From Candidatus Woesearchaeota archaeon (GTDB lineage: Archaea; Nanobdellota; Nanobdellia; Pacearchaeales; UBA284), in assembly GCA_964413705.1 (NCBI GenBank), contig CAYPSK010000001.1:1-62360 (forward strand): 62,360 bases of DNA, read 5' to 3'. Below are positions 26,135 through 57,768 of the stretch, in pieces (position 1 is the stretch's first letter; every line of letters starts with the position of its first letter). Below the pieces are notes generated by a model that was not told where the DNA came from, did no database searches, and saw only the letters and a list, made by a program, of their open reading frames with translations. The translations under genes were made by a program, and so were the position numbers.

Positions 26135-26269
26135 TTAATACGAATCCTTCGCCAATTTCAAAAGCCCAGCCCTATTCTTCTTGAATGCCCTCAAAAGAAG
26201 ATTAATTTCCTTTGCAACTGCATTCTTTAGGTCAAGAGGATGCAAAGGTTTAAATAGATTAGATAACTT
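26135..26269 (-). pseudogene. Displaced remnant of a tyrS 3' end (44 codons + stop)
   Basis: The minus-strand frame reads KLSNLFKPLHPLDLKNAVAKEINLLLRAFKKN...DSY-stop. This parallels the C-terminus of the intact tyrS at 27627..28757 (KKLHPLDLKIAIAEEIIKLLEPARKHF). No upstream catalytic part is present. Confidence 0.6.
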
Positions 26270-26271
26270 AA

Positions 26272-27615
26272 ATGAGTATGTTATATATATATCATTCCAA
26301 GCATCAAAATACAAAAAGTAGACTACTCAGAATTCAGATTCCAATAAAGATTTACGAAAAAATAAAAAATAGTTTTGTGAGTATAAAGATTAATAATGCA
26401 GAATTTTTTTATAAAATTTCTAATGAAAGAAGATTTGTTGTTCCAAAAGAATTAAAGGGGAAAATAAATTTCCAAAAAGAAAACCAGATTACAATAGAAA
26501 AACTAAAATTTATCAAAAGAACTGGAAAAAATATTGTTATAAAGAAAGAAAAACTAGACTTGCTTTCATTTATTCCCGACAAATTGCGTTCTGGAACCAA
26601 GATTAATCTTTTACTTTGGAAAAATAGTTTGATTTGTTTTTATAAAAGCCCTAAAGGAACATTAAGAAAAATAGAAATAAGAAAAGAGGTTCCTCTAGAA
26701 TTTTGTCGTCTTCTGGGTTATTACCAAGCGGAAGGAGGAAAGGAAAAGAAAATAAAAAAGAGCGGAAGACAAGTGGTTTTTACAAACACCCATATCAACT
26801 TAATTTCTGACTTTATTATTTTAAGCAAAAATTTGTTTAAAACAAATTTATGGAACGCAGAGATAAGAATTAAAAAAGCAAACAAAATGAAAGAAGCGCT
26901 TATTCAAAATATGCTAAAAAAACTAGGCATTAATAAAAAGAATATAAAAATAAGAATAGGAGATAATTTAAAAGATTTTAGTATAAGACTCTACATTTGT
27001 TCAACAATTCTTTCAGATATTATAATTAGGATTATGGAGAACATTAAGAATTATCTAATAACTGAAAATATTTTGAATAAGAAAAATAATCTAAAAATGT
27101 ATATATCTTTTATGCAAGGCTTGTTTGCAGGAGATGGAAATTATAATACCTATAAAAACAAAAAAGGCGGGGTTCACCATAGACTAATTTTCTATGAAGA
27201 AGATTACAATTATGCTCTTCAATATAAAAAATTACTCAAAAAAATAGGGATGGAAAGCAAAATAATAAAAATAAAAGATAAAAACTTGTTTATTATTAGG
27301 GCTACATTAAATTGGGATTTTTTGCTTTTGATTAAAGAATTAGGGCTATTTGATTGCCATATTCACCACAAAACATCTTTAATAGAATCTATCAAAAGAC
27401 ACAAATCCTATAGAAGCCACAAGTATCTTATTTCTATGCCTAATAAGATTGATATAAAGAAAGTACAAAAAGTAATAAAAAAAGAAAAGGTTATTTGTTA
27501 TAATTGGCTTAAAAAGATGGTTGAACGAGGAGTTATAATTAAGAGAGATGCAAATAGATGGGAGTTATCAGAAAAGGGAAAAAGAATAAAAAGGATTTTG
27601 AAAGAAATATCATAA
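26272..27615 (+). CDS. Free-standing double-motif LAGLIDADG homing-endonuclease-like protein with C-terminal winged helix
   Basis: Two LAGLIDADG motifs (FCRLLGYYQAEGG and FMQGLFAGDGNY) about 130 aa apart. An N-terminal extension of about 140 aa and a C-terminal wHTH-like tail (WLKKMVERGVIIKRDANRWELSEKGKRI). Confidence 0.75.
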   Translation: MSMLYIYHSKHQNTKSRLLRIQIPIKIYEKIKNSFVSIKINNAEFFYKISNERRFVVPKELKGKINFQKENQITIEKLKFIKRTGKNIVIKKEKLDLLSFIPDKLRSGTKINLLLWKNSLICFYKSPKGTLRKIEIRKEVPLEFCRLLGYYQAEGGKEKKIKKSGRQVVFTNTHINLISDFIILSKNLFKTNLWNAEIRIKKANKMKEALIQNMLKKLGINKKNIKIRIGDNLKDFSIRLYICSTILSDIIIRIMENIKNYLITENILNKKNNLKMYISFMQGLFAGDGNYNTYKNKKGGVHHRLIFYEEDYNYALQYKKLLKKIGMESKIIKIKDKNLFIIRATLNWDFLLLIKELGLFDCHIHHKTSLIESIKRHKSYRSHKYLISMPNKIDIKKVQKVIKKEKVICYNWLKKMVERGVIIKRDANRWELSEKGKRIKRILKEIS

Positions 27616-27626
27616 ACTCTGAAAAA

Positions 27627-28757
27627 TTATTTCGCGATTAATTTGTCAAGTTCTTCTAACATTTTTTTTGGCTTTCCACTAGCAAAATGCTTTCTTGCTG
27701 GCTCGAGTAACTTAATAATTTCTTCAGCAATTGCAATTTTTAAATCAAGAGGGTGCAATTTCTTGTTTAAGAAATCTTTTTCTAAATTAGAATAGCTTTT
27801 ATAAGCAATTTTTCCTCCAAACTTTTCTGGGCGATTTATTTCTAATTTTGAATTTTCATTACCAAAAACTAATGACTTTGCCCAATCAAGAACCGGATTA
27901 AATTCTGTCTCTCCTTCTGGACAAAAAGCATTTTTAATTTTAGTTCTAATTTCTTCTTCAGAATCATGAATAAATATGCATGTTTCTGGCTTGGATTTGG
28001 ACATTTTTAAAGAAGACCATAACTCTTGTAAATTTTCTTTTGGAATTGGCCAAATACTTGGTTTTCCTAAACCAAGAATAAGATGATGGTGTACCGCAAC
28101 AGGTTTTATTTTGTTCCCTTTTTTATCTAGAAGGGGCTTAATTTTTAAATTTAAAGCAACATCTCTTGCAATAACTTGGGCTTTTCTTTGATCTAAACCA
28201 GCATGAGGCATATTTATTCCTTGTGCAAAAATATCTGCAACTTGCATCGGAGGATAAATTAATTTGGCAAAGTCAACCAACTCTCCTTCTTTCCTACCCA
28301 TAATGGTTATGCTCCTCATCATTCTTGCTAAACTGGTATTTTTACTTATGTCGATCATCGTTTGCCAATATTCATCGTTATTATGATATAGATCAGATCC
28401 TAAAACAAATTTTAGTTTTTCTGGGTCTCCACCAACACACTTAAAACTTGCTTTCAAACCTTCTTTAAAGTAACCTCCAGCAACTCTTTTTATTGTTTCC
28501 ATATCTCCCCCGAGTTTATTATTAATCCAAGAATGCCAATCTGCCAAAAACAAAGAACACTCTGTTCCAGCATCCATAAAATCTTTTACCTTAGACATGC
28601 ACATAATTCCTGTCCCTAAATGAATTTTACCAGAAATCTCAAAGCCAATATAATGCTTGAGTTTTATTCCAGATTCTAATCTTTGTTTGAGATCTTCTTC
28701 AGTCATTATCTCTGCAGTATTTCTCTTAATCAATTCAAATCTTTTTTTTATATCCAT
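27627..28757 (-). CDS. tyrS: Tyrosine--tRNA ligase (archaeal type)
   Basis: HIGH-type motif SGKIHLGTG, KMSKS motif (LKMSKSKP), and a C-terminal RPEKFGG...LHPLDLK...LEP segment as in archaeal TyrRS. Confidence 0.85.
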   Translation of the reverse strand: MDIKKRFELIKRNTAEIMTEEDLKQRLESGIKLKHYIGFEISGKIHLGTGIMCMSKVKDFMDAGTECSLFLADWHSWINNKLGGDMETIKRVAGGYFKEGLKASFKCVGGDPEKLKFVLGSDLYHNNDEYWQTMIDISKNTSLARMMRSITIMGRKEGELVDFAKLIYPPMQVADIFAQGINMPHAGLDQRKAQVIARDVALNLKIKPLLDKKGNKIKPVAVHHHLILGLGKPSIWPIPKENLQELWSSLKMSKSKPETCIFIHDSEEEIRTKIKNAFCPEGETEFNPVLDWAKSLVFGNENSKLEINRPEKFGGKIAYKSYSNLEKDFLNKKLHPLDLKIAIAEEIIKLLEPARKHFASGKPKKMLEELDKLIAK

Positions 28758-29313: not shown

Positions 29314-29315
29314 AC

Positions 29316-29348
29316 AAAGCGCATAATTACTAAACAAAGTACATAAAA
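29316..29348 (+). repeat. Bipartite GCGCA motif, copy d (AAAGCGCATAATTACTAAACAAAGTACATAAAA)
   Basis: The first core GCGCA is at 29319; the second has degraded to GTACA at 29339 (20-nt spacing). It lies 22 nt upstream of the 29371 ATG. Confidence 0.6.
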
Positions 29349-29370
29349 AAGATTTTATTGCATAACAAAA

Positions 29371-30570
29371 ATGCTGGAAATCATCTTTGCAATCCTTATC
29401 GGAATCCTCTGCGGAATAATTACTGGGCTAATTCCAGGAATCCATATAAATCTTGTCGCAACTCTTTTATTTATTAACTCTGCAGCCTTTCTCTCAATAA
29501 CAAGCCCCCTTATTCTCGCCATATTCATAATCTCCATGACAATCTCTCATGCATTCATTGATTTTCTGCCCTCTATATTCTTAGGAGCTCCAGAACAAGA
29601 GACTGCCCTAAGTATCTTGCCAGGCCATCGCCTGCTGCTTGAAGGCAAAGGATATGAAGCAATAAAATTAACCTCTGTTGGTTGTCTAGCAGGAATAATC
29701 ATTGCAGGCGTCTTATCTATAATCTTTATTCCAACACTCTCCTTATTCTATCCCGCCCTATCCAAGATAATGGCTTTTCTTTTAATCTCTCTATCTCTTT
29801 TTTTGATTCTGAAAGAAAAAAAGAACCATAAGATTCTAGCTGCATTTATTTTTATTCTTGCAGGCATCCTAGGATATGCTGTCTTAAATTTCTCTGTAAT
29901 CAGACAACCCTTATTTCCCTTATTCACAGGACTTTTTGGAACCTCTCTATTGACTCTAAGCTTCTTCCAAGATGTAAAAATTCCCAAACAATCTCTTAAA
30001 AAAACAAAAATAAATAAAAAAGACCTTTTTAAATCTCTTAGCTTAAGTGTGGTATCATCAAGTCTTGTTTCTTTCCTGCCTGGACTGGGCTCTGCCCAAG
30101 CAGGAGTCATAGCATCTTCAATTAAAAAAATTCAGGAAAAATCTTTCTTGATTTTGCTTGGCGCAGTCAATTCAATAACTGTTCTCTTAAGTTTTGTTGC
30201 ACTATACTCCATCAATAAGCCAAGATCCGGCGTCGCAGTCTTTGTTGGAAAATTTCTTCCAAATTTTTCCCTCTCTGACCTCATGATTCTTATGGTTATT
30301 GCACTAATTGTTGGAATAATCCTCTTTCCACTGACTCTTTTTCTTGCAAGAAAGTTTTCACGATTCATAGAAAAAGTGAATTACAAATGGCTCTGCTTCT
30401 CAATCATCATCTTTTTAATAATCCTAACACCAATAATCTCTGGTTGGCTAGCTTTAATAGTCTTGATAACTTCTACATGTCTAGGCATATTCTGCTCCTT
30501 GCTAGGAATTAAGAAAATCTTTTTGATGGGCTCCCTGATTCTTCCAGTGATAATCTGGTATCTTATTTGA
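29371..30570 (+). CDS. TctA/DUF112-family polytopic membrane protein (putative transporter)
   Basis: About 10-12 TM segments. The N-terminal GILCGIITGLIPGIHINL and a later LPGLGSAQAG resemble the repeated G.lPG.g motifs of DUF112/TctA. Confidence 0.5.
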   Translation: MLEIIFAILIGILCGIITGLIPGIHINLVATLLFINSAAFLSITSPLILAIFIISMTISHAFIDFLPSIFLGAPEQETALSILPGHRLLLEGKGYEAIKLTSVGCLAGIIIAGVLSIIFIPTLSLFYPALSKIMAFLLISLSLFLILKEKKNHKILAAFIFILAGILGYAVLNFSVIRQPLFPLFTGLFGTSLLTLSFFQDVKIPKQSLKKTKINKKDLFKSLSLSVVSSSLVSFLPGLGSAQAGVIASSIKKIQEKSFLILLGAVNSITVLLSFVALYSINKPRSGVAVFVGKFLPNFSLSDLMILMVIALIVGIILFPLTLFLARKFSRFIEKVNYKWLCFSIIIFLIILTPIISGWLALIVLITSTCLGIFCSLLGIKKIFLMGSLILPVIIWYLI

Positions 30571-30614
30571 AATGAAGTTAGAAAGTTTTATTAATTAACT
30601 AAAATTGCCAGTTA

Positions 30615-31097
30615 ATGAATAAAAGAAGACTCTTGGGATTTATAGCAAAAGCCCATAGAAATACATACGCTGCTCAAAAAGAAACAAGAGCCAGGCATAA
30701 ATGCAAGGTTCCGATTCTTGCAGGCCATAAAGATTATGAATTTAAAGAAGGAGATTGGCTCTATCATGATTCATATGCGGGAAGTTTATGTGCGCCGGGA
30801 AGAGAGGTTGTTTTTTTCAAAGGTATCCCTGTTTGGTGTATGTCATATCAGGGACAACCTAATCCAAAACAGGAAGCACCCTTCTTTCAAGAGCAGTTAT
30901 TCCCATTTCTTAGAAGAGCATTAATGAATTTTGATGACAGCGTCCCCTTTCGGGGCCCAAAGGAATTCTCAGAGGGGGATTTTAAATATACTTTTGAAAT
31001 AAAAGGAGATTGCAACTATTTTAAAGGGCGAGAACAAGTTCTTTACAAAAACGAGAGGGTTTTCTTCCAAGATGTTATGGGATCCTTAATTAAATAA
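30615..31097 (+). CDS. Conserved hypothetical protein (DUF5680-like by recollection)
   Basis: FIAKAHRNTYAA ... WLYHDSYAGS...GREVVFFKGIPVWCMSYQG resembles the DUF5680 pattern as I remember it. Not verifiable here. Confidence 0.35.
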   Translation: MNKRRLLGFIAKAHRNTYAAQKETRARHKCKVPILAGHKDYEFKEGDWLYHDSYAGSLCAPGREVVFFKGIPVWCMSYQGQPNPKQEAPFFQEQLFPFLRRALMNFDDSVPFRGPKEFSEGDFKYTFEIKGDCNYFKGREQVLYKNERVFFQDVMGSLIK

Positions 31098-31157
31098 AAA
31101 ACAGAGTGCCCAAAATAGACTTTTCTTAGCTTTATCTCGGAAAATGAAAAATTAAGT

Positions 31158-31394
31158 TCAGCAGTATCCATTTGAATCGTCAACAGCAGTTATAGGGTCT
31201 ATCTCTTCAACCTTAATTCTTAACTTTCTTCCCTTATGATCCATTATTTCAACAGATTTGCCCTGCCGAGCATTGTCTGTTGCCCTAATTAACTCTGACT
31301 CATCCTCTCCGCCCTCAAATTCATCCCCGATTTCCTCTGCAAGTTCATCGTGAATGCCATCCTTGCCATCCTTAGCCTTTTTGTCTTCGGCCAT
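31158..31394 (-). CDS. Small acidic hypothetical protein
   Basis: A 78-aa ORF with a strongly acidic N-half and a beta-like C-half. No motif recognised. Confidence 0.35.
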   Translation of the reverse strand: MAEDKKAKDGKDGIHDELAEEIGDEFEGGEDESELIRATDNARQGKSVEIMDHKGRKLRIKVEEIDPITAVDDSNGYC

Positions 31395-31489
31395 TTTAGG
31401 AGGGAGAGATACAGGGTTTATAATATTTTCGGCGCTAAATTATACCATATAAATCATAAGACTTTTAAACCGCTCACTCATTTGAAATA

Positions 31490-31771: not shown

Positions 31772-31778
31772 TTAAGAA

Positions 31779-31812
31779 CAAAGCGCACAATTACTACATA
31801 AAGCGCATGAAA
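31779..31812 (+). repeat. Bipartite GCGCA motif, copy e (ACAAAGCGCACAATTACTACATAAAGCGCATGAAA)
   Basis: GCGCA cores at 31783 and 31803 (20-nt spacing), located between the convergent parvulin and DP2 genes. Confidence 0.7.
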
Positions 31813-31841
31813 ATTATTTATTTCTTATAAATTGCTTTTTT

Positions 31842-49298: not shown

Positions 49299-49334
49299 AA
49301 ATCTTCTGCTCAAAGCGCAGAACTTTTAGCATGA
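49299..49334 (+). repeat. Direct repeat copy 1 (AAATCTTCTGCTCAAAGCGCAGAACTTTTAGCATGA)
   Basis: Aligns with 49890..49925. In frame it reads KSSAQSAELLA-stop, versus KSSARR-stop-KLLA-stop in copy 2. Confidence 0.6.
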
Positions 49335-49421: not shown

Positions 49422-49910
49422 ATGGCCAAAACAAGACGAAAAGCAGAAAAAGCATCGAGAGATAAAAAACCAAGAGTCTACTTTACATTCTTCAGACCAT
49501 ATAGTCCAAATCTTGCCACCGCAAAAGAGGCAGCGATAGTTGGGATACTGGCCCGTTATGTGAGAAATGATTTGAACCGTAGAAAGACACATCCCGGTTA
49601 CCCCTTCAATACAAGGGTTGCATATAAACCTAAAGAAGATATTGAAGAAAACCAATTAGGTGTTACTAACAAACCACGGGTAGAAGGATTAATAGAAATG
49701 GTTCAATTAGTTTTTAGATACTGTAATGGAAGAGTTCTTTCAGAAAGACTGCCAGGTTATTTCTTTGCAAATGTTTCAGATTTAGAGGAGTTTGGGCAAC
49801 TACCAAAAAGAACAAGAGATAGTCTAAGAGAAGAAGTTGAAAGACACTACAGATCTCATGATTCTCTAGATCTATTAATATTTGGAGTCAAATCTTCTGC
49901 GCGTCGCTAG
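49422..49910 (+). CDS. Hypothetical basic protein
   Basis: A 162-aa ORF with non-repetitive composition, flanked by the 36-nt direct repeats. No motif recognised. Confidence 0.4.
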   Translation: MAKTRRKAEKASRDKKPRVYFTFFRPYSPNLATAKEAAIVGILARYVRNDLNRRKTHPGYPFNTRVAYKPKEDIEENQLGVTNKPRVEGLIEMVQLVFRYCNGRVLSERLPGYFFANVSDLEEFGQLPKRTRDSLREEVERHYRSHDSLDLLIFGVKSSARR

Positions 49911-49925
49911 AAACTTTTAGCATGA
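49890..49925 (+). repeat. Direct repeat copy 2 (AAATCTTCTGCGCGTCGCTAGAAACTTTTAGCATGA)
   Basis: Covers the last codons and stop of 49422..49910. The flanks AAATCTTCTGC and ACTTTTAGCATGA are identical to copy 1. Confidence 0.6.
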
Positions 49926-50055: not shown

Positions 50056-50997
50056 ATGAAAAAAGAGGATGTTGATAGTTATTTAGAAAAAGTCTCTACA
50101 GAGATTAAACTTAGAGGTCTAAGCAAAAGGACAATAGAGATATATTCCTTCTTTTTAAAAAAATATTTAGAAAGTTTAAATGTTCCTGCAGAACAAGCAA
50201 CAAGACAAGATGTTAATAATTTTTTAGCAAGTCTTGTTGATATCTATAAAAATCGAACAAGAGCTCTTGCAACATCTTCAATTCGATTTTTGTACAAAGA
50301 AATTTTAGATAAACCTGAAATAATTATCAAAATCAAAAATCCTAAAAAGCAGGAGGTTCTTCCAACAATCCTGACAAAAGAAGAAGTTCAAAATCTTATT
50401 AATTCAGTTAAAAGTCAAAAGTCAAAATTAATCATTCTTTTTTTATATGCCACTGGAATAAGGGTTTCAGAATTAACCAGCTTAAAAATTAATGATCTTG
50501 ACCTCCAGTATAGTAATGGGATAGTTCATGGCAAAGGGGGCAAGCAAAGACAAATTTACTTATCTAAGAACCTTGTCGAAGAACTAAAATTGTATTTTAA
50601 CAATAAACAAGAAAAAGAAGGAAATATCCAAAGTAATACCTCTCAGAGCCCCTATCTTTTTCCCAGCCATAAAGACCCCCAATTTCCATTAACTGTAAGA
50701 AACATCCAAAAAATAATCAAAGTTGCAACAAAAAAAGCAGGAATCAGCAAAAAAGTAACACCACATACTTTAAGACATTCTTTTGCAACACATCACCTTC
50801 AATCAGGCACAGATATAAGAAAAATTCAGATGTTGCTTGGGCACGCAAGAATAGACACGACCCAGATATACACTAATCTTTCAAATAAAGATCTAGAAAC
50901 TCTGAAAAATCCTGCAGATGATTTAGATTTTTCAGTTAAAGAAGAAGAACAAGTAAAAATAGAAGAAATAGAGGATAAACATGAAAAGTTAATTTAA
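50056..50997 (+). CDS. xerA: Tyrosine recombinase (XerA/XerC/XerD-like integrase)
   Basis: An N-terminal SAM-like core-binding domain. The catalytic region has ATGIRVSEL (Arg I), HGKGGKQR, TLRHSFATHH (His-x-x-Arg) and LLGHARIDTTQIYT (His and the Tyr nucleophile). Confidence 0.85.
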   Translation: MKKEDVDSYLEKVSTEIKLRGLSKRTIEIYSFFLKKYLESLNVPAEQATRQDVNNFLASLVDIYKNRTRALATSSIRFLYKEILDKPEIIIKIKNPKKQEVLPTILTKEEVQNLINSVKSQKSKLIILFLYATGIRVSELTSLKINDLDLQYSNGIVHGKGGKQRQIYLSKNLVEELKLYFNNKQEKEGNIQSNTSQSPYLFPSHKDPQFPLTVRNIQKIIKVATKKAGISKKVTPHTLRHSFATHHLQSGTDIRKIQMLLGHARIDTTQIYTNLSNKDLETLKNPADDLDFSVKEEEQVKIEEIEDKHEKLI

Positions 50998-51740: not shown

Positions 51741-51793
51741 GCCCACAAGATACATTATCCGTATTGCACTTTTCCAAGAAAAAGATGATGTTT

Positions 51794-52420
51794 TTAGCCT
51801 ATTGGATAAGATTTGACGATATCTAAAAATTCATCTAGATTATCAGTAATTCTGCGTATAGACTCAACAACTTGAAAAATATCTGTAGACTCTTCAATAA
51901 CATTTCTTCTTGTTTCTCCAGGCAACCAAATCTCCCCACCCAAAAACCAGGAATTTAATCTAGGTTGCTTGTTTCTCCATTCTTCTCCAGTAAGGCCTTC
52001 AAGACCTGCCCACCCATACAGTTTTAAATTAACTAAAAAGTTATCATAAGCGCCTTTAAAAGCGTCTGAAAATCCAAAAAGAAATGTTTGTTTTTTAATT
52101 TGATCAAGACGAAGATATTCTGCGGTTATGCTTTCTAAAGGCGCTCCCTGGGTTCCTCGAATGTAATTTTCTGCTGGTATATCTCCAGAAATTTCTCTAA
52201 GGGCATTTTGTGGGCTAGGGGTCTGTTGTGGATTACTAATTTTCAAACAAAGGTGTTCTTCTAATAGTCTATGATGGTTTGAAGTTCCAAAAACCTTGTG
52301 CATATTTGTAGAGTTCACATAAATAAGTGCAGGAGGTTTATTTGAAGATAAATCTGCTAACCAATCTCCCCCTTGGGATGAATCTTGATTTTGTTTTCCT
52401 ATGTTTTCTTTTGGTGGCAT
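51794..52420 (-). CDS. Hypothetical protein
   Basis: A 208-aa ORF, last gene of a same-strand cluster. No motif recognised. Confidence 0.4.
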   Translation of the reverse strand: MPPKENIGKQNQDSSQGGDWLADLSSNKPPALIYVNSTNMHKVFGTSNHHRLLEEHLCLKISNPQQTPSPQNALREISGDIPAENYIRGTQGAPLESITAEYLRLDQIKKQTFLFGFSDAFKGAYDNFLVNLKLYGWAGLEGLTGEEWRNKQPRLNSWFLGGEIWLPGETRRNVIEESTDIFQVVESIRRITDNLDEFLDIVKSYPIG

Positions 52421-52478
52421 GTTAATAGTTTCAAGAAAGATTAGGGGTTTTTCTATTTTTAAAGATTTCTGTGATTTT

Positions 52479-52880
52479 TTACTTTGGCAGATGAATACAG
52501 ATTATATCTTTAGGTCTAATATTTGTTCCAAATGTTTCGTAAACATATTCAACAGCAAGGTGCGTTTCTCTTGCTACCATTGCCCTATTTTCTTTAATTT
52601 TTTCTTTATTTTCTCCAGTTAGTTCTAATGGATTTTCACGATTTGTATAATAACCCCATATCTGGTATGCAACTGCTTCTTCAACACATTTATGGCCTTG
52701 AGTAGTAAAATAAAGCATTTGTAAACTGCCTTTATCTGTTCGGCAAACACTATAGCCTGAGCCTGGAAAAGATGAAGGCTCTTGATTTGGTTTAGAATAC
52801 CTGCCACAACCAGAAAAAGTAAATAATACTGCACTTGCAGCAGCAGCAACAATTAAAGCGATTAATCCTTTATGTTTCAT
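52479..52880 (-). CDS. Putative lipoprotein
   Basis: Signal peptide plus a lipobox-like FSGC (MKHKGLIALIVAAAASAVLFTFSGC). Confidence 0.5.
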   Translation of the reverse strand: MKHKGLIALIVAAAASAVLFTFSGCGRYSKPNQEPSSFPGSGYSVCRTDKGSLQMLYFTTQGHKCVEEAVAYQIWGYYTNRENPLELTGENKEKIKENRAMVARETHLAVEYVYETFGTNIRPKDIICIHLPK

Positions 52881-52946
52881 ATATTCTAGAAACTCAGGTA
52901 TTTTTAAGTTTTATTGTGATTTTTGGTGATTTTTGAGAAGTGTGCT

Positions 52947-53213
52947 TTAAAAGAAAAAGTCTAAAAGCTGTAATAAAAAACCAAGGCCCAATAAAACCAA
53001 AAATACAAACAATTTCTTTTCTTCTTTAGATATCTTAACTTCTTTAAGTCCTTTCTTGGTTTGATCGTAACGATATACTCTGCGCCTTTGTTCATCATCT
53101 GGATATTCAATTATCTGAAAAGATTTGGGTTTTCCAAAATTTATTAGAGTATCAAAAGCAAAATAAAAAGAACCTCCAAAACTCAAAATTAATCCGATTA
53201 AAGTTAAAATCAT
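52947..53213 (-). CDS. Small two-TM membrane protein
   Basis: 88 aa, with hydrophobic N- and C-terminal helices around a charged loop. Confidence 0.4.
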   Translation of the reverse strand: MILTLIGLILSFGGSFYFAFDTLINFGKPKSFQIIEYPDDEQRRRVYRYDQTKKGLKEVKISKEEKKLFVFLVLLGLGFLLQLLDFFF

Positions 53214-53225
53214 TTTTTATTTTTC

Positions 53226-53522
53226 TTATCTTATCAGGAGTTTTATCATTTCACTTATAGGGCCACAAATACCAATAACTTTTAAAATTGCCCAAATAAT
53301 AAATAAAACTATTGATAAAGGTAAAAAAGCAACAAATCCTCGTGTTTCAGTTCTTGTAAAAAAAGCTTCGCCAAAAAACAGCCATATCGCACCAAAAATC
53401 GCAACTAAAATAAGAATTTTATCACAATAATTTTGCGATAACAACCCCCAAAAAAGTAAGATTATTAAGAGTATAAGAATTATCCAAGCGAAGATAGTTT
53501 CTGCTTGTCCTTTCTTATTCAT
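53226..53522 (-). CDS. Small membrane protein with class III (pilin-like) signal-like N-terminus
   Basis: MNKKGQAETIFAWIILILLIILLF has KKG|Q followed by a hydrophobic helix. Two further TM helices follow. Confidence 0.4.
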   Translation of the reverse strand: MNKKGQAETIFAWIILILLIILLFWGLLSQNYCDKILILVAIFGAIWLFFGEAFFTRTETRGFVAFLPLSIVLFIIWAILKVIGICGPISEMIKLLIR

Positions 53523-53685
53523 TTTTTAAAACTTTTTTTAACTCCTTAAAACAAAAATCACACAAAGGAATTTCAGCTTGAGGAGAAGAGTATATGCCTT
53601 TAATTAAGATATTGTATTTAGCAGAGTGGCCCCTACAAACACATTGTTCGGAAATTGAATTACATTTAATTTCTACTCTACTCAT
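53515..53685 (-). CDS. Cys-rich 56-aa protein (below the ORF-track cutoff)
   Basis: The hand translation is MSRVEIKCNSISEQCVCRGHSAKYNILIKGIYSSPQAEIPLCDFCFKELKKVLKNE, with C-x6-CxC ... CxxC. Its stop overlaps the start of 53226..53522 by 8 nt, suggesting translational coupling. Confidence 0.35.
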   Translation of the reverse strand: MSRVEIKCNSISEQCVCRGHSAKYNILIKGIYSSPQAEIPLCDFCFKELKKVLKNE

Positions 53686-53755
53686 TCAAAATCCAATAAT
53701 AACTTATATTTAAACCTATCGCTTGGTACTAAGCACTTGGTAGTGGTAAGAAATA

Positions 53756-53763
53756 TTTATAAA
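53756..53763 (+). promoter_or_regulatory. TATA-box-like element
   Basis: TTTATAAA is centred about 25 nt upstream of the ATG at 53785. Confidence 0.3.
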
Positions 53764-53784
53764 TCCTTTTTTGTTAAGTAAATT

Positions 53785-54273
53785 ATGAAAAAAGAGGACG
53801 AAGAAAACAATTCTCCATTTGCAAGAGAAAGTGAAACACATGAAAGAATTCATTCTCATCTTAAAGCACATCCAAGAGGATTAACAACACAAGAAATAGA
53901 ACAGCAAACAGGAATTTCTAGAAAAGCAGTTGAAAAACATCTTCAAATGCTTTTATTTTCTAATGATATTTATATGAAACAACTTGGAAGTACAAGGGTT
54001 TATTATCCAAATCATAGGTATCATCATATAGATTTTAAATATTTTGATGTTGGCAAAAAAAGATTTTATATAGATTTAATTGAAAATGATTATGGTAAGT
54101 CTGTTCTTGTACAGCAAAAAATCAAGGAAAAAGACAAATGGATTACAAAAGGAAGTATCTTTATTCCAATAAATGCAACACAACAATTCTTAAAAAGCTT
54201 TAGCGATATAATAAACTCTAAGAGATTAAAAGATGAAATTAAAAAGGAGAAAGAAAATGGGAACAGAACATAA
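53785..54273 (+). CDS. Winged-helix protein upstream of the methyltransferase (possible R-M controller or regulator)
   Basis: IHSHLKAHPRGLTTQEIEQQTGISRKAVEKHLQMLLFSNDIYMKQLGSTRVYY is a wHTH pattern. Its 3' end overlaps the methyltransferase start. Confidence 0.5.
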   Translation: MKKEDEENNSPFARESETHERIHSHLKAHPRGLTTQEIEQQTGISRKAVEKHLQMLLFSNDIYMKQLGSTRVYYPNHRYHHIDFKYFDVGKKRFYIDLIENDYGKSVLVQQKIKEKDKWITKGSIFIPINATQQFLKSFSDIINSKRLKDEIKKEKENGNRT

Positions 54274-55072
54274 AATAATCTTAGGTGATGCTCTAAAAGT
54301 GTTAAAGAAAATTCCAGATAATTCTGTTGATCTGGTGTTTGCTGATCCACCTTACAACATGTCTAAGAAAAAAGGACTTGGTTGGGCTTATAGCAAACAT
54401 GTAACTATGCAGCAAGAATGGGATATGTTCTCTAAAGATGACTTTTTTAAGTTCAATAAAGAATGGATAGCAGAATGTTTAAGAGTTTTGAAACATGGTG
54501 GCAGTTTATGGATTTCTGGCAGTTTTCACAATATTTATCAAATTGGTTTTATCCTCCAACAACTACACCCAGAAATTAAAATAAATAATAGCATTGTTTG
54601 GTTTAAACCAAATGCTCAACCCAACATAACCTGCAGATTTTTTACAGAAAGTACAGAGCATTTAATTTGGGCTACAAAGAATGGAGATAAGAAGAAATGG
54701 AAATTTAATTATCAATTTACTAAAGATCATATTTTAGATAACATAAATCCAGAAGGGAAACAAACTAGGAATGTTTGGAGTATTCCCCTAACTCCTAAAA
54801 ATGAGAAATGGGCAGGAGCACATCCAACACAAAAACCATTTGAATTATTAAGACGAATCATTCTAAGTTCTACAGATGAAGGTGATACGGTTCTTGATCC
54901 TTTTGTAGGTTCTGGCACAACATCAGTAGTTGCTAAGTATTATGGCAGAAATTCAATAGGGATCGAAGTAGATAAAAAATATCAAGATATAATCAAAAAA
55001 AGATTAGAAAAATCACAAAAAACTGCTTCTGGAGAAGAAGCAGAGGTTATCTTTGAGGATTTTAAAGATTAA
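54233..55072 (+). CDS. DNA methyltransferase, beta-class (N6-adenine or N4-cytosine; DPPY type)
   Basis: Motif IV LVFADPPYN is near the N-terminus and AdoMet motif I DPFVGSGTT is near the C-terminus, which is the circularly permuted beta order. The likely start is the ATG at 54257. Confidence 0.85.
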   Translation: MKLKRRKKMGTEHKIILGDALKVLKKIPDNSVDLVFADPPYNMSKKKGLGWAYSKHVTMQQEWDMFSKDDFFKFNKEWIAECLRVLKHGGSLWISGSFHNIYQIGFILQQLHPEIKINNSIVWFKPNAQPNITCRFFTESTEHLIWATKNGDKKKWKFNYQFTKDHILDNINPEGKQTRNVWSIPLTPKNEKWAGAHPTQKPFELLRRIILSSTDEGDTVLDPFVGSGTTSVVAKYYGRNSIGIEVDKKYQDIIKKRLEKSQKTASGEEAEVIFEDFKD

Positions 55073-55677
55073 TTCATATACCAAAGAGGTTTGAGATTAC
55101 TTTCACATTTTTTATGTTTTTTATTCTCTTTATAAGTATATTTTGTTATTGGTGGTTGCCCATTACATACACTCATACATAAATTATCTATCTCTTTAGG
55201 GTTATCAATAAATTCTCTAATCCAACCCTGAAAAAACAGATTGGCAGGTTCAAAATAACTTTCTTTATTATATGCATACTCTTGTTCAATAAGAAATAAT
55301 TGTGCCAAAACTCCAATAATAAGTAAATCATTAAGATAATGCTCAAACTTTTCTTTTGACAGTTTAGCAAGTTCCTTTTCTGGGTTCGATCCATAAAAAA
55401 TATTGTCAAAAGCAAGTAATAAGTCTCTCTTTAAATCTTGTCTGCTTCTAACTCGGAGGTTTAAGTCAAGCATAACTCTAAGGTGATTTGGTCTAAATTC
55501 TCTTTCACCTTCTTTTAGCCATACCTGAAAATTCTTGTTTATATCATATCCTTTAAATCTTGGTGAAAGTATTGATGGCCTAAATAGCTGAACTTCTATG
55601 CCCTCTTTCTTAAATATAGTTTCCTTTTTATCAAAAGGCAGGTTTATCACGATCTTAAGCATTTCTGATTTAAGCAT
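55069..55677 (-). CDS. Hypothetical protein; positional candidate for the cognate restriction endonuclease
   Basis: Convergent with the methyltransferase, with a 4-nt overlap of the 3' ends. 202 aa. No catalytic motif could be assigned with confidence. Confidence 0.35.
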   Translation of the reverse strand: MLKSEMLKIVINLPFDKKETIFKKEGIEVQLFRPSILSPRFKGYDINKNFQVWLKEGEREFRPNHLRVMLDLNLRVRSRQDLKRDLLLAFDNIFYGSNPEKELAKLSKEKFEHYLNDLLIIGVLAQLFLIEQEYAYNKESYFEPANLFFQGWIREFIDNPKEIDNLCMSVCNGQPPITKYTYKENKKHKKCESNLKPLWYMN

Positions 55678-55713
55678 AAAACATTAAGAAACCCCAACTT
55701 TTTAAAAGGATCC

Positions 55714-55905
55714 TTGCCTAGTCTCTTCATGGCAATAATGGGTAGAACCAAAAGAGCAAATGCGCAGAGATGGAATGCTATTAATAAGCAAAGAGAAAAA
55801 GAAAATGATTGTGAACCTAAAAAAGAAGAAAAAAAGATTTCTAAAGGGGAAATGGGGAAATTAATTCAAATAATAAGGGAAGCGGCAGCAAAAAAGTCTG
55901 ATTAG
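55714..55905 (+). CDS. Possible small basic protein
   Basis: A 63-aa Lys/Arg/Glu-rich ORF. Its coding status is uncertain. Confidence 0.25.
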   Translation: MPSLFMAIMGRTKRANAQRWNAINKQREKENDCEPKKEEKKISKGEMGKLIQIIREAAAKKSD

Positions 55906-56064
55906 CCATTTTTCGCCCCCTCACACCACGCGCAACCCTTCGCAGGACACTCCCCATTCAAAAGATCTAGGGCCTCTTTCCAAACTCGCTCTACTATCTT
56001 TACATTGACTTCCATCTTAATAAGATTTGTATTGAATAAGACTTCTCCTGTCTCTAAAACTCCT
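55902..56064 (-). pseudogene. Orphan 3' end (53 codons + stop) of a Cas4-like nuclease gene
   Basis: The minus frame reads GVLETGEVLFNTNLIKMEVNVKIVERVWKEALDLLNGECPAKGCAWCEGAKNG-stop. This is colinear with the C-terminus of 57049..57768. Nucleotide identity is about 85% by eye over about 150 nt. No upstream part of the gene is present. Confidence 0.65.
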
Positions 56065-56419
56065 AGTTTTTATTCTTTTCTAAATCTTTTTTTATTTTTT
56101 GGATCTTTTCTTTTAAGTCCGGAAGATCTTTTTTGATAATATTCCAAACTATGTTCAAATCGACTCCAAAATAATGGTGAATCATTTTATCCCTTGTTCC
56201 TACAATCTCTTTCCAAGGTATTGAAGAATATTTTTCTTTTAAATTATCTGAAATATTTTTTATTGCTTCACCTATAATCTCTATCTCTCTTACAATTGCA
56301 CTCTGTTTCATCCTATTTGAAATTAATTCTTCCTTGTCCATATTTTTAGAAAATTCATCTATTGCATTGATACTTTCTAAAATATGTTTAATAAATATTA
56401 CATCTTCTTTATTATTCAT
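56063..56419 (-). CDS. hepT: HEPN (DUF86) toxin of a HEPN-MNT module
   Basis: WKEIVGTRDKMIHHYFGVD carries the Rx4H HEPN motif. 118 aa. 4-nt overlap with the upstream MNT gene. Confidence 0.8.
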   Translation of the reverse strand: MNNKEDVIFIKHILESINAIDEFSKNMDKEELISNRMKQSAIVREIEIIGEAIKNISDNLKEKYSSIPWKEIVGTRDKMIHHYFGVDLNIVWNIIKKDLPDLKEKIQKIKKDLEKNKN

Positions 56420-56889
56420 ATTATCCTCACTTCCTGACTTAAAATCTTATCTTTAAGATAAGGGCTTATTCCATTATAGCTTACTAAATCTACTTTTCTT
56501 TTTAATGCTTTTTCAAGTTCAAATTGAACTCCAACAAACTGCAAACCCATCCCCTTAGGGGGCTGTATTAAAATATCAATATCACTATTTTTTTTCTGTT
56601 CTCCCTTTACGTAACTTCCAAATATTCCTGCTTTTTTTATTTTATTTTTTTTTAAAATTTTAATTATTTTCGGTTTTATTTTTTCTATGACACTTTTCTT
56701 TGCATCTTTCTTTAATTTATTTTTTAGAAGCACTTTATCTGCTTTTTTTTCTTTTTCAGCTAATTCCTTATCAAACAAGTCAACACCCAAATATTTTCTT
56801 TTTTTTGAAACTTTATTTCCTTTTCTAACAGAGATAACTCTATAATAATATTTTTTTTTATTTCTCTTCTGTATTTCAGTATATACCAT
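56416..56889 (-). CDS. mntA: Minimal nucleotidyltransferase (MNT) antitoxin with a Lys-rich N-terminal extension
   Basis: GIFGSYVKGEQKKNSDIDILI matches GSx(n)SDxD of the pol-beta-type NTase. An extra basic segment of about 70 aa lies at the N-terminus (KKKYYYRVISVRKGNKVSKKRKYLG). Confidence 0.8.
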   Translation of the reverse strand: MVYTEIQKRNKKKYYYRVISVRKGNKVSKKRKYLGVDLFDKELAEKEKKADKVLLKNKLKKDAKKSVIEKIKPKIIKILKKNKIKKAGIFGSYVKGEQKKNSDIDILIQPPKGMGLQFVGVQFELEKALKRKVDLVSYNGISPYLKDKILSQEVRII

Positions 56890-57048
56890 GTTGTGTGTAT
56901 GTCTACATTGTTTATAAATCTTTCTGTAGACATATAAGCGAAGGGCATAAAAAATAGTTTGCTATATTATTTTAATCAATTATGAAAAATTGTGAAGAAA
57001 TAACTACTATTCTTCCTCTTTCTCCTCCTTAAACTCCTCCCAAACTTT

Positions 57049-57768
57049 TTATTTTTCTCCTTTTCCTTCACACCACTCACACCCCTTCTTAGGACACTCT
57101 CCATTCAAAAGCTCAAGGGCCTCTTTCCAAACCTTTTCTACTATTTTTATATTGACTTCCATCTTAATGAGATTTGTATTGAACAAGACTTCCCCTGTCT
57201 CTAAAACCTCTTTTGGATGATAGAATAATAGGAAAAAATGATCCCCTGTTTCAAATCCGTTTTTTTGTAATAAGAAATTATAGATATTCTGCTGCAACCT
57301 ATAGTGCTCTGCAGTATCTTCTTTTAATGGAAAGCCCCGAGTCTTATAATCTAAAACAAATAACTTGTTTCCATCAACTAATATATTATCAACAGCCCCA
57401 TGCAAAACATTTTCTTGTTCATCTGTCCAGGTAATTCCCTTAAAATTATTTCTCCATTTATCTAATAACTCTTTGTTGTTGAATAACTTCATGTTCTTGC
57501 AATGAACATGCTCTCTGATTTCAGGAGGCAAAGTCCCTTGTTCAGCAAACTTGTCAAAATGTTTTTTTAAAACTCCATCCATGCCACTTGGAAGACTTGG
57601 AAAAATCCCTAAAGGTCTTTTCCAAACTTCATGTTGTGTAAGCCAGAAACATCTTGGGCACTCTTTCATCAAGTTTAGTGTGCTTGGGGATAATTTGTAT
57701 GTTTGTGGCATTTTGTATAAAAAGGCTAGAGAATTGGATGTTTTAAGAGTTTCTATTCTAAGAACCAC
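57049..57768 (-). CDS. Cas4/RecB-like PD-(D/E)XK nuclease with Cys cluster, stand-alone
   Basis: An N-terminal Cys (ECPRCFW). Nuclease motifs GAVDNILVD...LFVLDYKTRG (D...D/ExK) and QQNIYNFLL (QhxxY). The C-terminal cluster is CPKKGCEWC. The likely start is MPQTYK at 57711. Confidence 0.7.
   Translation of the reverse strand: MVLRIETLKTSNSLAFLYKMPQTYKLSPSTLNLMKECPRCFWLTQHEVWKRPLGIFPSLPSGMDGVLKKHFDKFAEQGTLPPEIREHVHCKNMKLFNNKELLDKWRNNFKGITWTDEQENVLHGAVDNILVDGNKLFVLDYKTRGFPLKEDTAEHYRLQQNIYNFLLQKNGFETGDHFFLLFYHPKEVLETGEVLFNTNLIKMEVNIKIVEKVWKEALELLNGECPKKGCEWCEGKGEK

What the first reader, a model, noticed from the sequence alone, without database searches (positions are those of the whole stretch)
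26135..57212. Recurring signature: inserted genes flanked by diverged duplicates of a neighbouring gene's 3' end (possible common, undescribed insertion mechanism)
Three independent loci in one 62-kb window share the same architecture. They are tyrS with the LAGLIDADG gene, the Cas4-like gene with HEPN-MNT, and the 49.3-49.9 kb gene. In each, an intact gene is followed by inserted cargo and then a displaced orphan copy of the intact gene's 3' end. The two copies are diverged (about 65-85% identity), not identical as in simple att duplications. The cargo differs in each case (homing endonuclease, TA module, unknown gene). Only one tyrosine recombinase is nearby. This could reflect recombination-driven cassette exchange between strains using gene ends as homology anchors. 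It could also reflect a dedicated gene-end-targeting mobile system.
Basis: inference. Interest (0 to 1): 0.6.

Follow-up and report, generated by a model that had tools for sequence, protein, structure and literature searches.

The report
Homing-endonuclease scars: displaced gene ends
In this tiny symbiotic archaeon, leftover tail pieces beside tyrS and two other genes are scars of foreign gene copies that arrived with a selfish nuclease gene or a toxin-antitoxin pair; this is known from fungal mitochondria, not from archaeal chromosomes in the papers searched.

Summary
Two of the three loci are real. They are tyrS/LAGLIDADG with an orphan at 26135-26269, and Cas4-like/HEPN-MNT with an orphan at 55914-56060. 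The 49.3-49.9 kb locus is only a 36-nt intergenic hairpin-type repeat around a variable gene.

A whole-genome scan added one clear case on contig C18: taw1, a 345-aa ORF and an orphan. It also added one short case on C36.

Relatives decide the reading:
- Same-genus genomes have empty sites.
- The orphans match the genus-native gene type.
- The working 3' end of taw1, and all of tyrS, match genes in distant genomes that carry the same cargo gene.
- The closest cargo homologues (3 LAGLIDADG, 5 of the 345-aa family) all lie convergent on the same host gene's 3' end, overlapping it by 9-79 nt.
- Independent orphans start at the same conserved motif.

This is the mitochondrial "mobile ORF with foreign C-terminus" pattern, driven by a homing endonuclease, here on an archaeal (Pacearchaeota-type) chromosome. 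At tyrS a whole essential gene was displaced in place.

The Cas4-like/HEPN-MNT case has no DNA-nuclease cargo. It looks like recombination between functional alleles in a defence island.

So there is no single new mechanism. The result is a new variant of a known one, plus a candidate new endonuclease family. Read mapping was unavailable.

The parts
25191..26102 (+). Conserved flank: GTPase gene (MMR_HSR1 + TGS) convergent on the tyrS locus
   Evidence: Pfam. It is syntenic and directly abuts tyrS in G001 and G005.
26135..26269 (-). Orphan: the last ~40 codons of the displaced resident tyrS, of the type found in same-genus G005
   Evidence: 17/30 residues match the intact TyrRS. It is 65% identical over 40 aa, to the very end, to G005 TyrRS (E 2e-13). 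It shares that type's C-terminal pattern.
26272..27615 (+). Free-standing double-motif LAGLIDADG homing-endonuclease-type gene (447 aa) with N- and C-terminal DNA-binding-like extensions
   Evidence: Pfam LAGLIDADG_3. Both motifs and their acidic residues (E154, D288) are invariant in 6 homologues. No match in 60 relatives. Matches in 12 of 401 genomes of the order, counting this genome itself; the three closest are all on a tyrS 3' end.
27627..28757 (-). Working tyrS, a xenologue that replaced the resident gene
   Evidence: Pfam tRNA-synt_1b. It is 89% identical to G001, 62-63% to other-family G032, G025 and G310, 43% to same-genus G004 and 35% to same-genus G005. The tree places it with HEG-bearing G310 at 97/96.
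55914..56060 (-). Orphan 3' end of a Cas4-like allele (about 48 codons plus stop, frame open, Cys motif kept)
   Evidence: 87% DNA identity to 57065-57207. 17 differences in 138 nt, distributed 3/3/11 by codon position.
56063..56419 (-). HEPN/HepT toxin gene of the inserted module
   Evidence: Pfam HepT-like, E 1.8e-31.
56416..56889 (-). MNT (MntA-type nucleotidyltransferase) antitoxin gene of the inserted module
   Evidence: Pfam Polbeta and NTP_transf_2. Closest homologues are 65-73% identical, in another family of the order and in other contexts. DNA homology of the module spans 56064-56937.
57049..57768 (-). Intact Cas4-like PD-(D/E)XK nuclease gene
   Evidence: Pfam PDDEXK_1. The family is found in 142 of 401 genomes of the order. 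End fragments of it flank other cargo in relatives.
49299..49334 (+).
   Evidence: As DNA it folds to a nested hairpin with z -2.98.
49890..49925 (+). Copy 2 of the 36-nt repeat, overlapping the stop of variable ORF 49422-49910
   Evidence: The pair is unique in the genome. G001 has an analogous pair around a different gene.
50056..50997 (+). Tyrosine recombinase at the edge of a roughly 10-kb variable island (50.0-60.2 kb); no visible link to the orphans
   Evidence: Pfam Phage_integrase. The island has no collinear counterpart in G001.

Best explanation
Two different processes leave the same scar.

(A) tyrS in the window and taw1 on contig C18.
- A free-standing homing-endonuclease-type gene sits convergent on the 3' end of a housekeeping gene, abutting or overlapping it. 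One is a double-motif LAGLIDADG enzyme. The other is a 345-aa wHTH protein with a probable PD-(D/E)XK-like nuclease domain.
- Because of that position, the gene can only travel together with that 3' end.
- Inferred cycle: the enzyme cuts endonuclease-free alleles at a conserved motif in the 3' part of the host gene. That motif is just before LHPLDLK in TyrRS and just before YM.VGF in Taw1.
- The break is repaired from an endonuclease-bearing donor. Homology is available only on the 5' side, so the donor's 3' end (taw1) or the whole divergent gene (tyrS) is copied in together with the endonuclease gene.
- The far side is joined without homology. The resident gene's last 40-65 codons, starting at the cut, therefore remain as an orphan.

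(B) Cas4-like/HEPN-MNT.
- A horizontally acquired toxin-antitoxin module entered a defence island together with the 3' end of a closely related, functional Cas4-like allele.
- This happened by homology-anchored recombination with an illegitimate (or single-crossover) second join.
- No cargo-encoded DNA nuclease is involved.

The 49.3-49.9 kb locus is unrelated. It is a pair of hairpin-type intergenic repeats around a variable gene slot.
For: Shown for tyrS:
- Same-genus G001 has an empty site, with GTPase and tyrS stops a few nt apart and no endonuclease gene or orphan.
- The orphan is of the TyrRS type of same-genus, syntenic G005: 65% over 40 aa, against 32-35% identity between the G000 and G005 TyrRS proteins.
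- On the TyrRS tree, genus members fall into three clades, each supported 100/100. G000 and G001 group with endonuclease-bearing G310.
- tyrS is the most similar collinear gene between G000 and G001 outside the variable island: 84% DNA identity against 67-82% for the other collinear stretches.
- The three closest LAGLIDADG homologues (56, 49 and 37% identity) all overlap a tyrS 3' end by 9-17 nt. G310 also has GTPase, orphan, endonuclease gene and tyrS in that order.
- The two independent orphans begin 5 or fewer codons before LHPLDLK.
- The catalytic motifs are invariant.

Shown for taw1:
- G001, G002, G004 and G005 have empty sites.
- In the C-terminal tree, all cargo-linked ends form one clade (98/96). 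The G000 orphan sits in the genus clade (95/97).
- In the N-terminal tree, G000 pairs with G003 (100/100) outside the cargo-linked clade. The gene is therefore chimeric.
- Five homologues of the 345-aa gene from other genomes and metagenomes all overlap a taw1 3' end by 28-79 nt. One lineage has its own orphan starting at the same motif. A 31% homologue overlaps the gatD 3' end.
- The family is rare, with 26 proteins in 5.8 billion.
- E200, D226, E239 and K260 are invariant, and the best fold matches are Hjc, R2-RLE and Mus81.

Shown for Cas4-like:
- The differences between the two copies are concentrated at third codon positions, 3/3/11.
- The closest relatives of the module are in another family of the order and not beside Cas4-like genes.

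Precedent: fungal mitochondrial mobile ORFs (PMC3630166).
Against: - No cleavage activity or target site has been shown. The cut sites are inferred from where the orphans start.
- The nuclease fold of the 345-aa protein rests on weak matches (E 0.03, TM 0.36-0.42).
- G001 carries the xenologous tyrS type, and G003 the G000-type taw1 body. Neither has an endonuclease gene or an orphan, which requires either clean loss or separate clean replacement.
- The TyrRS orphan comparison rests on only 40 residues.
- Other free-standing LAGLIDADG genes in this genome, such as the one on endA, show no orphan. The scar is therefore not obligatory.
- For Cas4-like, the data do not tell which copy is resident.
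Confidence: 0.7

Rival explanations
1. Site-specific integration by a tyrosine recombinase whose attachment site lies in the gene end. The element carries its own copy of the end, as e14 and phage 21 do at icd of E. coli, so integration leaves diverged duplicates. The present inserts would be remnants, or elements mobilised in trans.
For: - It is an established way to obtain diverged 3'-end duplicates (my own knowledge of e14 and phage 21 at icd).
- A recombinase gene lies at 50056-50997.
- In relatives, 5'-end fragments of the Cas4-like gene all break right after the CPRCFWL motif. In G015 a recombinase gene sits beside such a fragment.
Against: - No recombinase lies within any insert. The inserts are 1.0-1.4 kb, holding one gene or one toxin-antitoxin pair.
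- The window's recombinase is 6 kb from the nearest orphan.
- The Cas4-like 3' orphans in different genomes start at different residues: 187 in G000, 217 in G001, and about 160-196 in three others.
- tyrS and taw1 cargo are endonuclease-type genes tied to one host gene.
Confidence: 0.12
2. Ordinary tandem duplication of the gene, or of its end, followed by decay of one copy and unrelated later insertion of cargo between the copies.
For: - Tandem paralogues are common in this genome and dominate the local-similarity scan.
- Some relatives carry two Cas4-like genes.
Against: - Orphan and working end belong to different, well-supported clades for taw1 and to different TyrRS types.
- The taw1 orphan scores higher on Pfam Wyosine_form than the working end does, so it has not decayed.
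- The two Cas4-like copies differ mainly at third codon positions.
- Cargo and host gene are associated across distant genomes.
Confidence: 0.06
3. Assembly artefact: strain variants in the metagenome were joined so that two alleles of a gene end appear on one contig.
For: - The genome is a 67-contig metagenome-assembled draft.
- Read evidence could not be obtained.
Against: - The same architecture appears in independent assemblies: G310 for tyrS, and taw1 contigs L092 and L093 from two samples, with 14 contigs carrying that cargo protein.
- The tyrS and taw1 copies are far too diverged to be strain variants (37-57% protein identity).
- The cargo lies between the copies, with no shared sequence that could mislead an assembler.
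Confidence: 0.04

Closest known systems
Mobile ORF elements (mORFs) of fungal mitochondria that carry a foreign C-terminus: Allomyces macrogynus atp6; Glomus sp. atp6, atp9, cox2, nad3 (PMC3630166 and the Allomyces work it cites)
   Same: - The order is host gene body, inserted foreign 3' end completing the frame, endonuclease ORF (LAGLIDADG or other), then the displaced native C-terminus.
- The native copy is closest to near relatives and the inserted copy groups elsewhere.
- The explanation is endonuclease cleavage of ORF-less alleles.
   Different: - Here the setting is an archaeal chromosome, not an organelle.
- The hosts are translation-related genes (tyrS, taw1; gatD, the ribosomal P1 gene and endA for relatives).
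- The endonuclease gene lies on the opposite strand and overlaps the host 3' end, rather than lying in phase downstream.
- At tyrS the whole gene, not only its end, is foreign.
Intronless homing of free-standing endonuclease genes in T-even phages (seg and mob genes; e.g. mobE, PMC2790892)
   Same: A free-standing endonuclease gene lies beside its target gene. A double-strand break in endonuclease-free genomes leads to copying of the endonuclease gene together with flanking markers.
   Different: - Phage homing happens between highly similar co-infecting genomes, with homology on both sides, and leaves no orphan.
- Here the donor and recipient genes are as little as 32-37% identical, and one join is non-homologous.
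In situ xenologous gene displacement, well known for aminoacyl-tRNA synthetases (my own knowledge: comparative-genomics work of the Koonin group)
   Same: A foreign, deeply divergent version of an essential gene occupies exactly the resident gene's slot in conserved synteny. Three TyrRS types occupy one locus within one genus.
   Different: Such cases are normally inferred from trees only. Here a physical relic of the displaced gene, and a candidate driver (the endonuclease gene), lie at the junction.
Integrative elements that rebuild the end of their target gene (e14 and phage 21 at icd; dusA-specific integrases)
   Same: Diverged duplicate of a gene end on the far side of the inserted DNA.
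   Different: Those elements encode an integrase and have defined att cores. No integrase lies in the inserts here.
HepT/MntA (HEPN-MNT) toxin-antitoxin modules
   Same: The cargo at 56063-56889 matches both Pfam families and has the overlapping two-gene layout.
   Different: Nothing is known to mobilise such modules by itself. Here the module is bracketed by two alleles of a neighbouring gene's 3' end.

Membership tests
LAGLIDADG homing endonucleases (free-standing, single-chain) | Two LAGLIDADG motifs, each with a conserved acidic catalytic residue | tested here: met
   Pfam LAGLIDADG_3. The two motifs, with E154 and D288, are invariant in six homologues.
LAGLIDADG homing endonucleases (free-standing, single-chain) | Sporadic distribution that disagrees with the species tree | tested here: met
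   No match in 60 relatives, including 5 of the same genus. Matches in 12 of 401 genomes of the order, counting this genome itself; the other 11 are all in another family.
LAGLIDADG homing endonucleases (free-standing, single-chain) | Constant association with one target gene or site | tested here: met
   The three closest homologues all overlap a tyrS 3' end. Two independent orphans start at the same motif.
LAGLIDADG homing endonucleases (free-standing, single-chain) | Site-specific cleavage of the endonuclease-free allele and immunity of the occupied allele | not testable with these tools
   Needs protein and DNA substrates.
mORF-type element with foreign C-terminus | The native C-terminus, displaced downstream of the endonuclease ORF, groups with close relatives; the working C-terminus groups elsewhere | tested here: met
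   taw1 C-terminal tree: cargo-linked clade 98/96, orphan in the genus clade 95/97. The tyrS orphan is of the G005 type.
mORF-type element with foreign C-terminus | Only the 3' part of the host gene is replaced (chimeric gene) | tested here: inconclusive
   Met for taw1: the N-terminal part pairs with G003 outside the cargo-linked clade. Not met for tyrS, where the whole gene is of the foreign type.
mORF-type element with foreign C-terminus | Endonuclease ORF downstream of the inserted C-terminus on the same strand, often in phase with it | tested here: not met
   Here the ORF is on the opposite strand. It lies 11 nt from the host 3' end in the window and overlaps it by 9-79 nt elsewhere.
PD-(D/E)XK nucleases (for the 345-aa taw1-linked protein) | Restriction-endonuclease-like fold with a conserved acidic/Lys catalytic set | tested here: inconclusive
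   No Pfam or PDB sequence match. The C-terminal domain model has pLDDT 77. Best fold hits are Hjc resolvases, R2 RLE and Mus81, at E 0.03 and TM 0.36-0.42. E200, D226, E239 and K260 are invariant in 27 sequences.
Integrase-borne integrative element targeting a gene end | Integrase gene inside the insert | tested here: not met
   The inserts hold only the LAGLIDADG gene, the 345-aa gene, or MNT + HEPN.
HepT/MntA toxin-antitoxin | Adjacent, overlapping MNT and HEPN genes matching both families | tested here: met
   Polbeta and NTP_transf_2 at E 9e-17; HepT-like at E 1.8e-31; 4-nt overlap.
   Copy 1 folds to a nested hairpin with z -2.98. Copy 2 is degenerate, with z -0.22. The G001 counterpart carries a GCACAAAA core. 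Family membership was not tested with a model.

The most novel reading that the evidence does not exclude
Free-standing homing endonuclease genes parked convergently on the 3' ends of translation genes (tyrS, taw1, gatD, endA, the ribosomal P1 gene) would be a general engine of in-place xenologous replacement of essential genes in DPANN archaea. That would give a physical mechanism for the long-noted rampant horizontal transfer of aminoacyl-tRNA synthetase genes. The 345-aa wHTH protein would be a new homing endonuclease family.
Probability: 0.35. Interest if true: 0.8.

Novelty: new variant of a known kind. Interest (0 to 1): 0.6.

Why it matters
Horizontal replacement of essential genes, aminoacyl-tRNA synthetases above all, is usually inferred only from discordant trees. 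How a cell swaps an indispensable gene in place is rarely visible.

Here the relic of the displaced gene, the foreign gene and a candidate driver lie side by side, with empty sites in sister genomes. The process becomes testable by cleavage assays on the inferred motifs.

It also shows three further things:
- The mitochondrial mobile-ORF strategy exists on cellular archaeal chromosomes.
- An 812-kb symbiont genome carries a heavy load of such elements: 15 LAGLIDADG domain hits, about half of them free-standing.
- There is a rare, uncharacterised protein family that may be a new site-specific endonuclease.

For annotation, short "hypothetical" ORFs next to such genes should be recognised as gene-end relics.

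Tried and rejected
- **Naive scan.** I compared the first, middle and last 50 aa of 743 ORFs with their 3-kb flanks, using swapped-flank controls. Tandem paralogues dominated the result. There was no C-terminal excess, and the scan was too insensitive to find the tyrS orphan. It cannot serve as an enrichment test.
- **Candidates discarded from the all-fragment scan.** Hits on C3, C7, C12, C2, C8, C23 and C11 are internal repeats or paralogues inside large genes. The C37 hit is a 16-aa exact repeat on a scaffold that contains an N run.
- **endA locus.** The 62-aa ORF beside the endA-linked LAGLIDADG gene is not an endA relic.
- **Cargo relatedness.** The two cargo proteins (447 aa and 345 aa) are unrelated.
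- **HEPN-MNT.** Its closest homologues are not beside Cas4-like genes, so there is no host-gene-specific association.
- **Fold search.** The full-length search with the 345-aa model returned only wHTH regulators. A second model of the C-terminal domain was needed.
- **Locus 3.** There is no tRNA or Rfam family at 49.3 kb. An integron-like reading was considered but not pursued: there is only one slot, and the recombinase lies downstream on the same strand.
- **** was a mistaken call and returned an error.
- **Literature.** Searches for homing endonucleases with DPANN, or with xenologous displacement, found no description of this arrangement in archaea. The library is limited to open-access papers.


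Full report
**Setting**

The window is contig C1 of an 812-kb, 67-contig metagenome-assembled genome with about 34% G+C. Earlier notes of this scan call it a Pacearchaeota-type DPANN archaeon. I did not check that name myself.

**Checking the observation**

Locus 1:
- tyrS lies at 27627-28757 on the minus strand.
- A 447-aa LAGLIDADG ORF lies at 26272-27615 on the plus strand, ending 11 nt from the tyrS stop.
- Beyond it, on the minus strand, an open frame at 26135-26269 matches the TyrRS C-terminus at 17 of 30 residues (E 2e-6). It ends 33 nt from the stop of the convergent GTPase gene.

Locus 2:
- A Cas4-like PD-(D/E)XK gene lies at 57049-57768 (-).
- After 159 nt come MNT (56416-56889) and HEPN/HepT (56063-56419).
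- Directly after the HEPN stop comes a copy of the last ~48 codons of the Cas4-like gene, at 55914-56060. It is 87% identical in DNA and about 90% in protein.

Locus 3:
- It does not fit. The only repeat is 36 nt (49299-49334 and 49890-49925, 28/36 identical).
- Copy 1 is intergenic. Copy 2 merely overlaps the last 7 codons of ORF 49422-49910.
- The pair is unique in the genome.
- Copy 1 folds into a nested hairpin with z -2.98.
- The same-genus genome G001 has an analogous pair around a different gene.
- I read it as hairpin-type intergenic repeats at a variable gene slot. They probably belong to the REP-like family noted earlier in this genome (e1-4515199). It is not a gene-end duplication.

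**Genome-wide scan**

- A segment-against-flank scan of 743 ORFs gave no excess of C-terminal matches. At 22 bits or more there were 8 C-terminal, 22 N-terminal and 10 middle-segment hits, mostly tandem paralogues. It missed the tyrS orphan, so it is not a valid enrichment test.
- An all-against-all comparison of six-frame fragments found one more clear case on contig C18 and one short one on C36.
- C18 carries taw1 (radical SAM + Wyosine_form), then a 345-aa ORF on the opposite strand overlapping the taw1 end by 67 nt. Next comes a 74-codon open frame matching Pfam Wyosine_form at E 7.5e-16, better than the working gene's own C-terminus. EF-1alpha follows.
- On C36, the last ~18 codons of an 86-aa gene recur 1.9 kb downstream, after a radical-SAM gene and an aldo-keto reductase gene. 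The match is about 55 nt at about 83% identity.

**What the relatives show for taw1**

- Same-genus genomes G001, G002, G004 and G005 have the empty arrangement: permease, taw1, EF-1alpha.
- Their Taw1 C-termini are 71-75% identical to the G000 orphan but only 36-40% identical to the G000 working C-terminus (41-45% by the tblastn comparison).
- The 345-aa gene was not found in any of the 23 genomes searched of its own family (which include the 5 of the same genus). It was found in 6 of 356 searched genomes of another family.
- The family is rare overall, with 26 proteins among 5.8 billion.
- In all five other contexts examined (G352, G105 and three metagenome lineages) it is convergent on a taw1 3' end, overlapping it by 28-79 nt.
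- One of these lineages, seen in two samples, has its own Wyosine_form orphan on the far side.
- A 31%-identical homologue overlaps the gatD 3' end in the same way.
- The C-terminal tree puts all cargo-linked C-termini in one clade (98/96) and the G000 orphan in the genus clade (95/97). The second orphan falls among non-cargo types.
- In the N-terminal tree, G000 pairs with G003 (100/100), outside the cargo-linked clade.
- So the G000 gene is a chimera: its last ~70 codons came with the cargo.
- Both orphans begin at the same conserved motif, YM.VGF.

**What the relatives show for tyrS**

- G001 has GTPase and tyrS back to back, with no LAGLIDADG gene and no orphan.
- TyrRS falls into four deeply separated types, 30-45% identical between types.
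- The genus holds three of them: G000 and G001 share one, G004 has another and G005 a third. The G005 locus is fully syntenic with G000; for G004 the locus fetched shows only the downstream GTPase gene.
- On the tree, each genus member groups with genomes of other families at 100/100. G000 and G001 group with G310 (97/96), which carries a LAGLIDADG homologue.
- The G000 orphan is of the G005 type: 65% over 40 residues, to the very end (E 2e-13). The G000 and G005 TyrRS proteins themselves are only 32-35% identical.
- So the working tyrS is a xenologue, and the orphan is the last piece of the resident gene.
- tyrS is also the most similar collinear gene between G000 and G001 outside the variable island: 84% DNA identity against 67-82% for the other collinear stretches. 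TyrRS is 89% identical, above EF-1alpha at 85%.
- The LAGLIDADG gene has no match in 60 relatives. It matches in 11 other genomes of the order, all in another family (12 of 401 searched, counting this genome itself).
- Its three closest homologues (56, 49 and 37%) all overlap a tyrS 3' end by 9-17 nt, and those tyrS genes are of three different types.
- G310 repeats the full architecture: GTPase, orphan, endonuclease gene, tyrS.
- The G000 and G310 orphans differ in type, yet both start 5 or fewer codons before the conserved LHPLDLK motif.
- More distant homologues (27%) sit convergent on the ribosomal P1 gene.
- Both LAGLIDADG motifs and their acidic residues are invariant across six homologues.

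**Mechanism for tyrS and taw1**

The following points are shown:
- the empty sites;
- the lineage identity of the orphans;
- the foreign identity of the working ends;
- the strict association of each cargo family with one host gene;
- the physical overlap of cargo and host 3' ends;
- the shared start points of independent orphans;
- the intact catalytic motifs.

The rest is inferred. The cargo proteins cut endonuclease-free alleles at the conserved motif. Repair then copies the endonuclease gene, with its inseparable host 3' end, from a donor. When the donor and recipient genes are too diverged, homology is found only further 5'. That point lies within the gene for taw1 and beyond it for tyrS. 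The 3' side is joined without homology, which preserves the resident end from the cut onward.

This is the 'mobile ORF with foreign C-terminal' of fungal mitochondria. PMC3630166 describes the same triplet and the same logic of native against inserted ends for Glomus, and cites Allomyces atp6 as the first case. It differs here in several ways:
- the setting is an archaeal chromosome;
- the hosts are translation-related genes;
- the cargo is convergent and overlapping;
- at tyrS a whole essential gene was displaced.

Literature searches found no description of this in archaea.

**Is the 345-aa protein a nuclease?**

- It has no Pfam family beyond a weak HTH match, and no PDB sequence match.
- The AlphaFold model is confident (pLDDT 85.7) and shows an N-terminal winged helix.
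- A separate model of residues 190-345 (pLDDT 77) gives weak best matches: archaeal Hjc resolvases, the R2 restriction-like endonuclease and Mus81/ERCC4 (E 0.03, probability 0.98, TM 0.36-0.42).
- E200, D226, E239 and K260 are invariant in 27 sequences.
- This suggests a PD-(D/E)XK-type nuclease but does not prove it.

**The Cas4-like/HEPN-MNT locus**

- It lies in a roughly 10-kb island (50.0-60.2 kb) that has no collinear counterpart in G001. The island also holds a methyltransferase with a convergent partner and a DUF2283 pair.
- The two copies of the 3' end differ at 17 of 138 positions, distributed 3/3/11 over codon positions. That makes 9 synonymous and 5 replacement codons, and the Cys motif is kept.
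- So they diverged as working alleles, not by decay after duplication.
- The MNT gene's closest relatives (65-73%) are in another family of the order and never beside a Cas4-like gene. DNA homology delimits the module to 56064-56937.
- G001 and G004 are about equally distant from both copies, so I cannot say which copy is resident.
- The most economical reading is recombination with DNA of a related strain that carried the module downstream of its Cas4-like gene. One crossover fell in the gene, and the other join was illegitimate, directly at the HEPN stop.
- Integrase action cannot be excluded.

**The Cas4-like family as a recurrent site of such scars**

- G001 has a probable HNH gene (HNH_3, E 0.0025, below the Pfam cut-off; an HNH-like His motif is visible in the sequence) between the Cas4-like gene and a 20-residue 3' orphan.
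- G002, G015 and G112 have 5' orphans with Fic, NYN or DUF5678 / Asp-protease / DUF2283 cargo.
- The 5' fragments from six places in five genomes (G002, G015 twice, G112, G122, G226) all break right after the CPRCFWL motif. In G015 a recombinase gene is adjacent.
- That hints at a site-specific process at the 5' end. It would be distinct from the 3' events, whose orphans start at different residues in different genomes.

**Load of selfish nucleases**

- The genome has 15 LAGLIDADG domain hits. They fall in 5 large ORFs (the PolD one is a confirmed intein, the other four were not checked) and 6 short frames, 5 of them outside the window.
- The one on contig C47 is convergent on the tRNA-splicing endonuclease gene, overlapping it by 28 nt, with no detectable orphan. 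The one on C5 faces the Alba gene.
- PolD DP2 in the window (31842-36764) carries an intein with a LAGLIDADG domain that G001 lacks.

**Limits**

- The orphan comparisons rest on 40-65 residues.
- G001 (tyrS) and G003 (taw1) carry the foreign or shared gene type without cargo or orphan. That needs clean loss or clean replacement, which I could not resolve.

**Verdict**

It is not one new mechanism. It is a new archaeal variant of a known endonuclease-driven process, plus an ordinary recombination scar in a defence island.

Noticed in passing
window 31842-36764 (-): The DNA polymerase D large subunit (DP2) carries an intein of about 460 aa with a LAGLIDADG domain (residues ~926-1381). The G001 orthologue lacks it.
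   Followed up: partly
G000 contigs C47, C5, C40, C58, C14 (loci L101-L105): The genome has five more LAGLIDADG hits in short frames. The C47 one is convergent on the tRNA-splicing endonuclease gene endA, overlapping it by 28 nt. The C5 one faces the Alba gene. No orphans were detected at any of them.
   Followed up: partly
relatives: L042 (G002), L043 and L044 (G015), L033 (G112), L039 (G122), L038 (G226): 5'-end fragments of the Cas4-like gene recur upstream of Fic, NYN or toxin-antitoxin-like cargo. All break right after the CPRCFWL motif. The two G015 copies continue with the same foreign sequence, and one lies beside a tyrosine recombinase gene. This may be a site-specific integration site in the 5' end of this gene family.
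   Followed up: partly
L017 (G001:C1) 887-2157: In G001 the Cas4-like gene is followed by a 174-aa probable HNH endonuclease gene (HNH_3, E 0.0025, below the Pfam cut-off) and then a 20-residue copy of its own C-terminus, before xseA. This is the same scar with a nuclease as cargo.
   Followed up: partly
window 49299-50055 and G001:C1 23186-23975: In both genomes a pair of about 36-60-nt direct repeats with hairpin potential brackets one small gene, and the gene differs between the genomes. A tyrosine recombinase gene lies 130 nt (G000) or 1.2 kb (G001) downstream. The layout is cassette-like and remains unexplained.
   Followed up: partly
window 50020-60160: This is a variable island relative to G001. 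Two of its stretches (57745-58478 and 59849-60033) are 92-94% identical to DNA elsewhere on the G001 contig, far above the 67-84% of the other collinear stretches. That points to recent exchange of mobile DNA between the two lineages.
   Followed up: no
G000:C36 (L047) 3688-5950: The last ~18 codons of an 86-aa His-rich coiled-coil gene recur 1.9 kb downstream, after a radical-SAM gene and an aldo-keto reductase gene. Both copies end in a stop. This may be a fourth, short scar with metabolic cargo.
   Followed up: partly
window 30570-31841: Three small genes (30615-31097, 31158-31394, 31490-31771) have no counterpart in the collinear G001 region. Copies of an intergenic motif bracket the wider stretch that contains them (29314-29355 and 31778-31819, 81% identical).
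   Followed up: no
L070 (G148:C38) 3895-4221: In G148 a fragment of a Cas4-like gene (residues ~59-131) lies directly upstream of the tyrS that carries the LAGLIDADG homologue.
   Followed up: no
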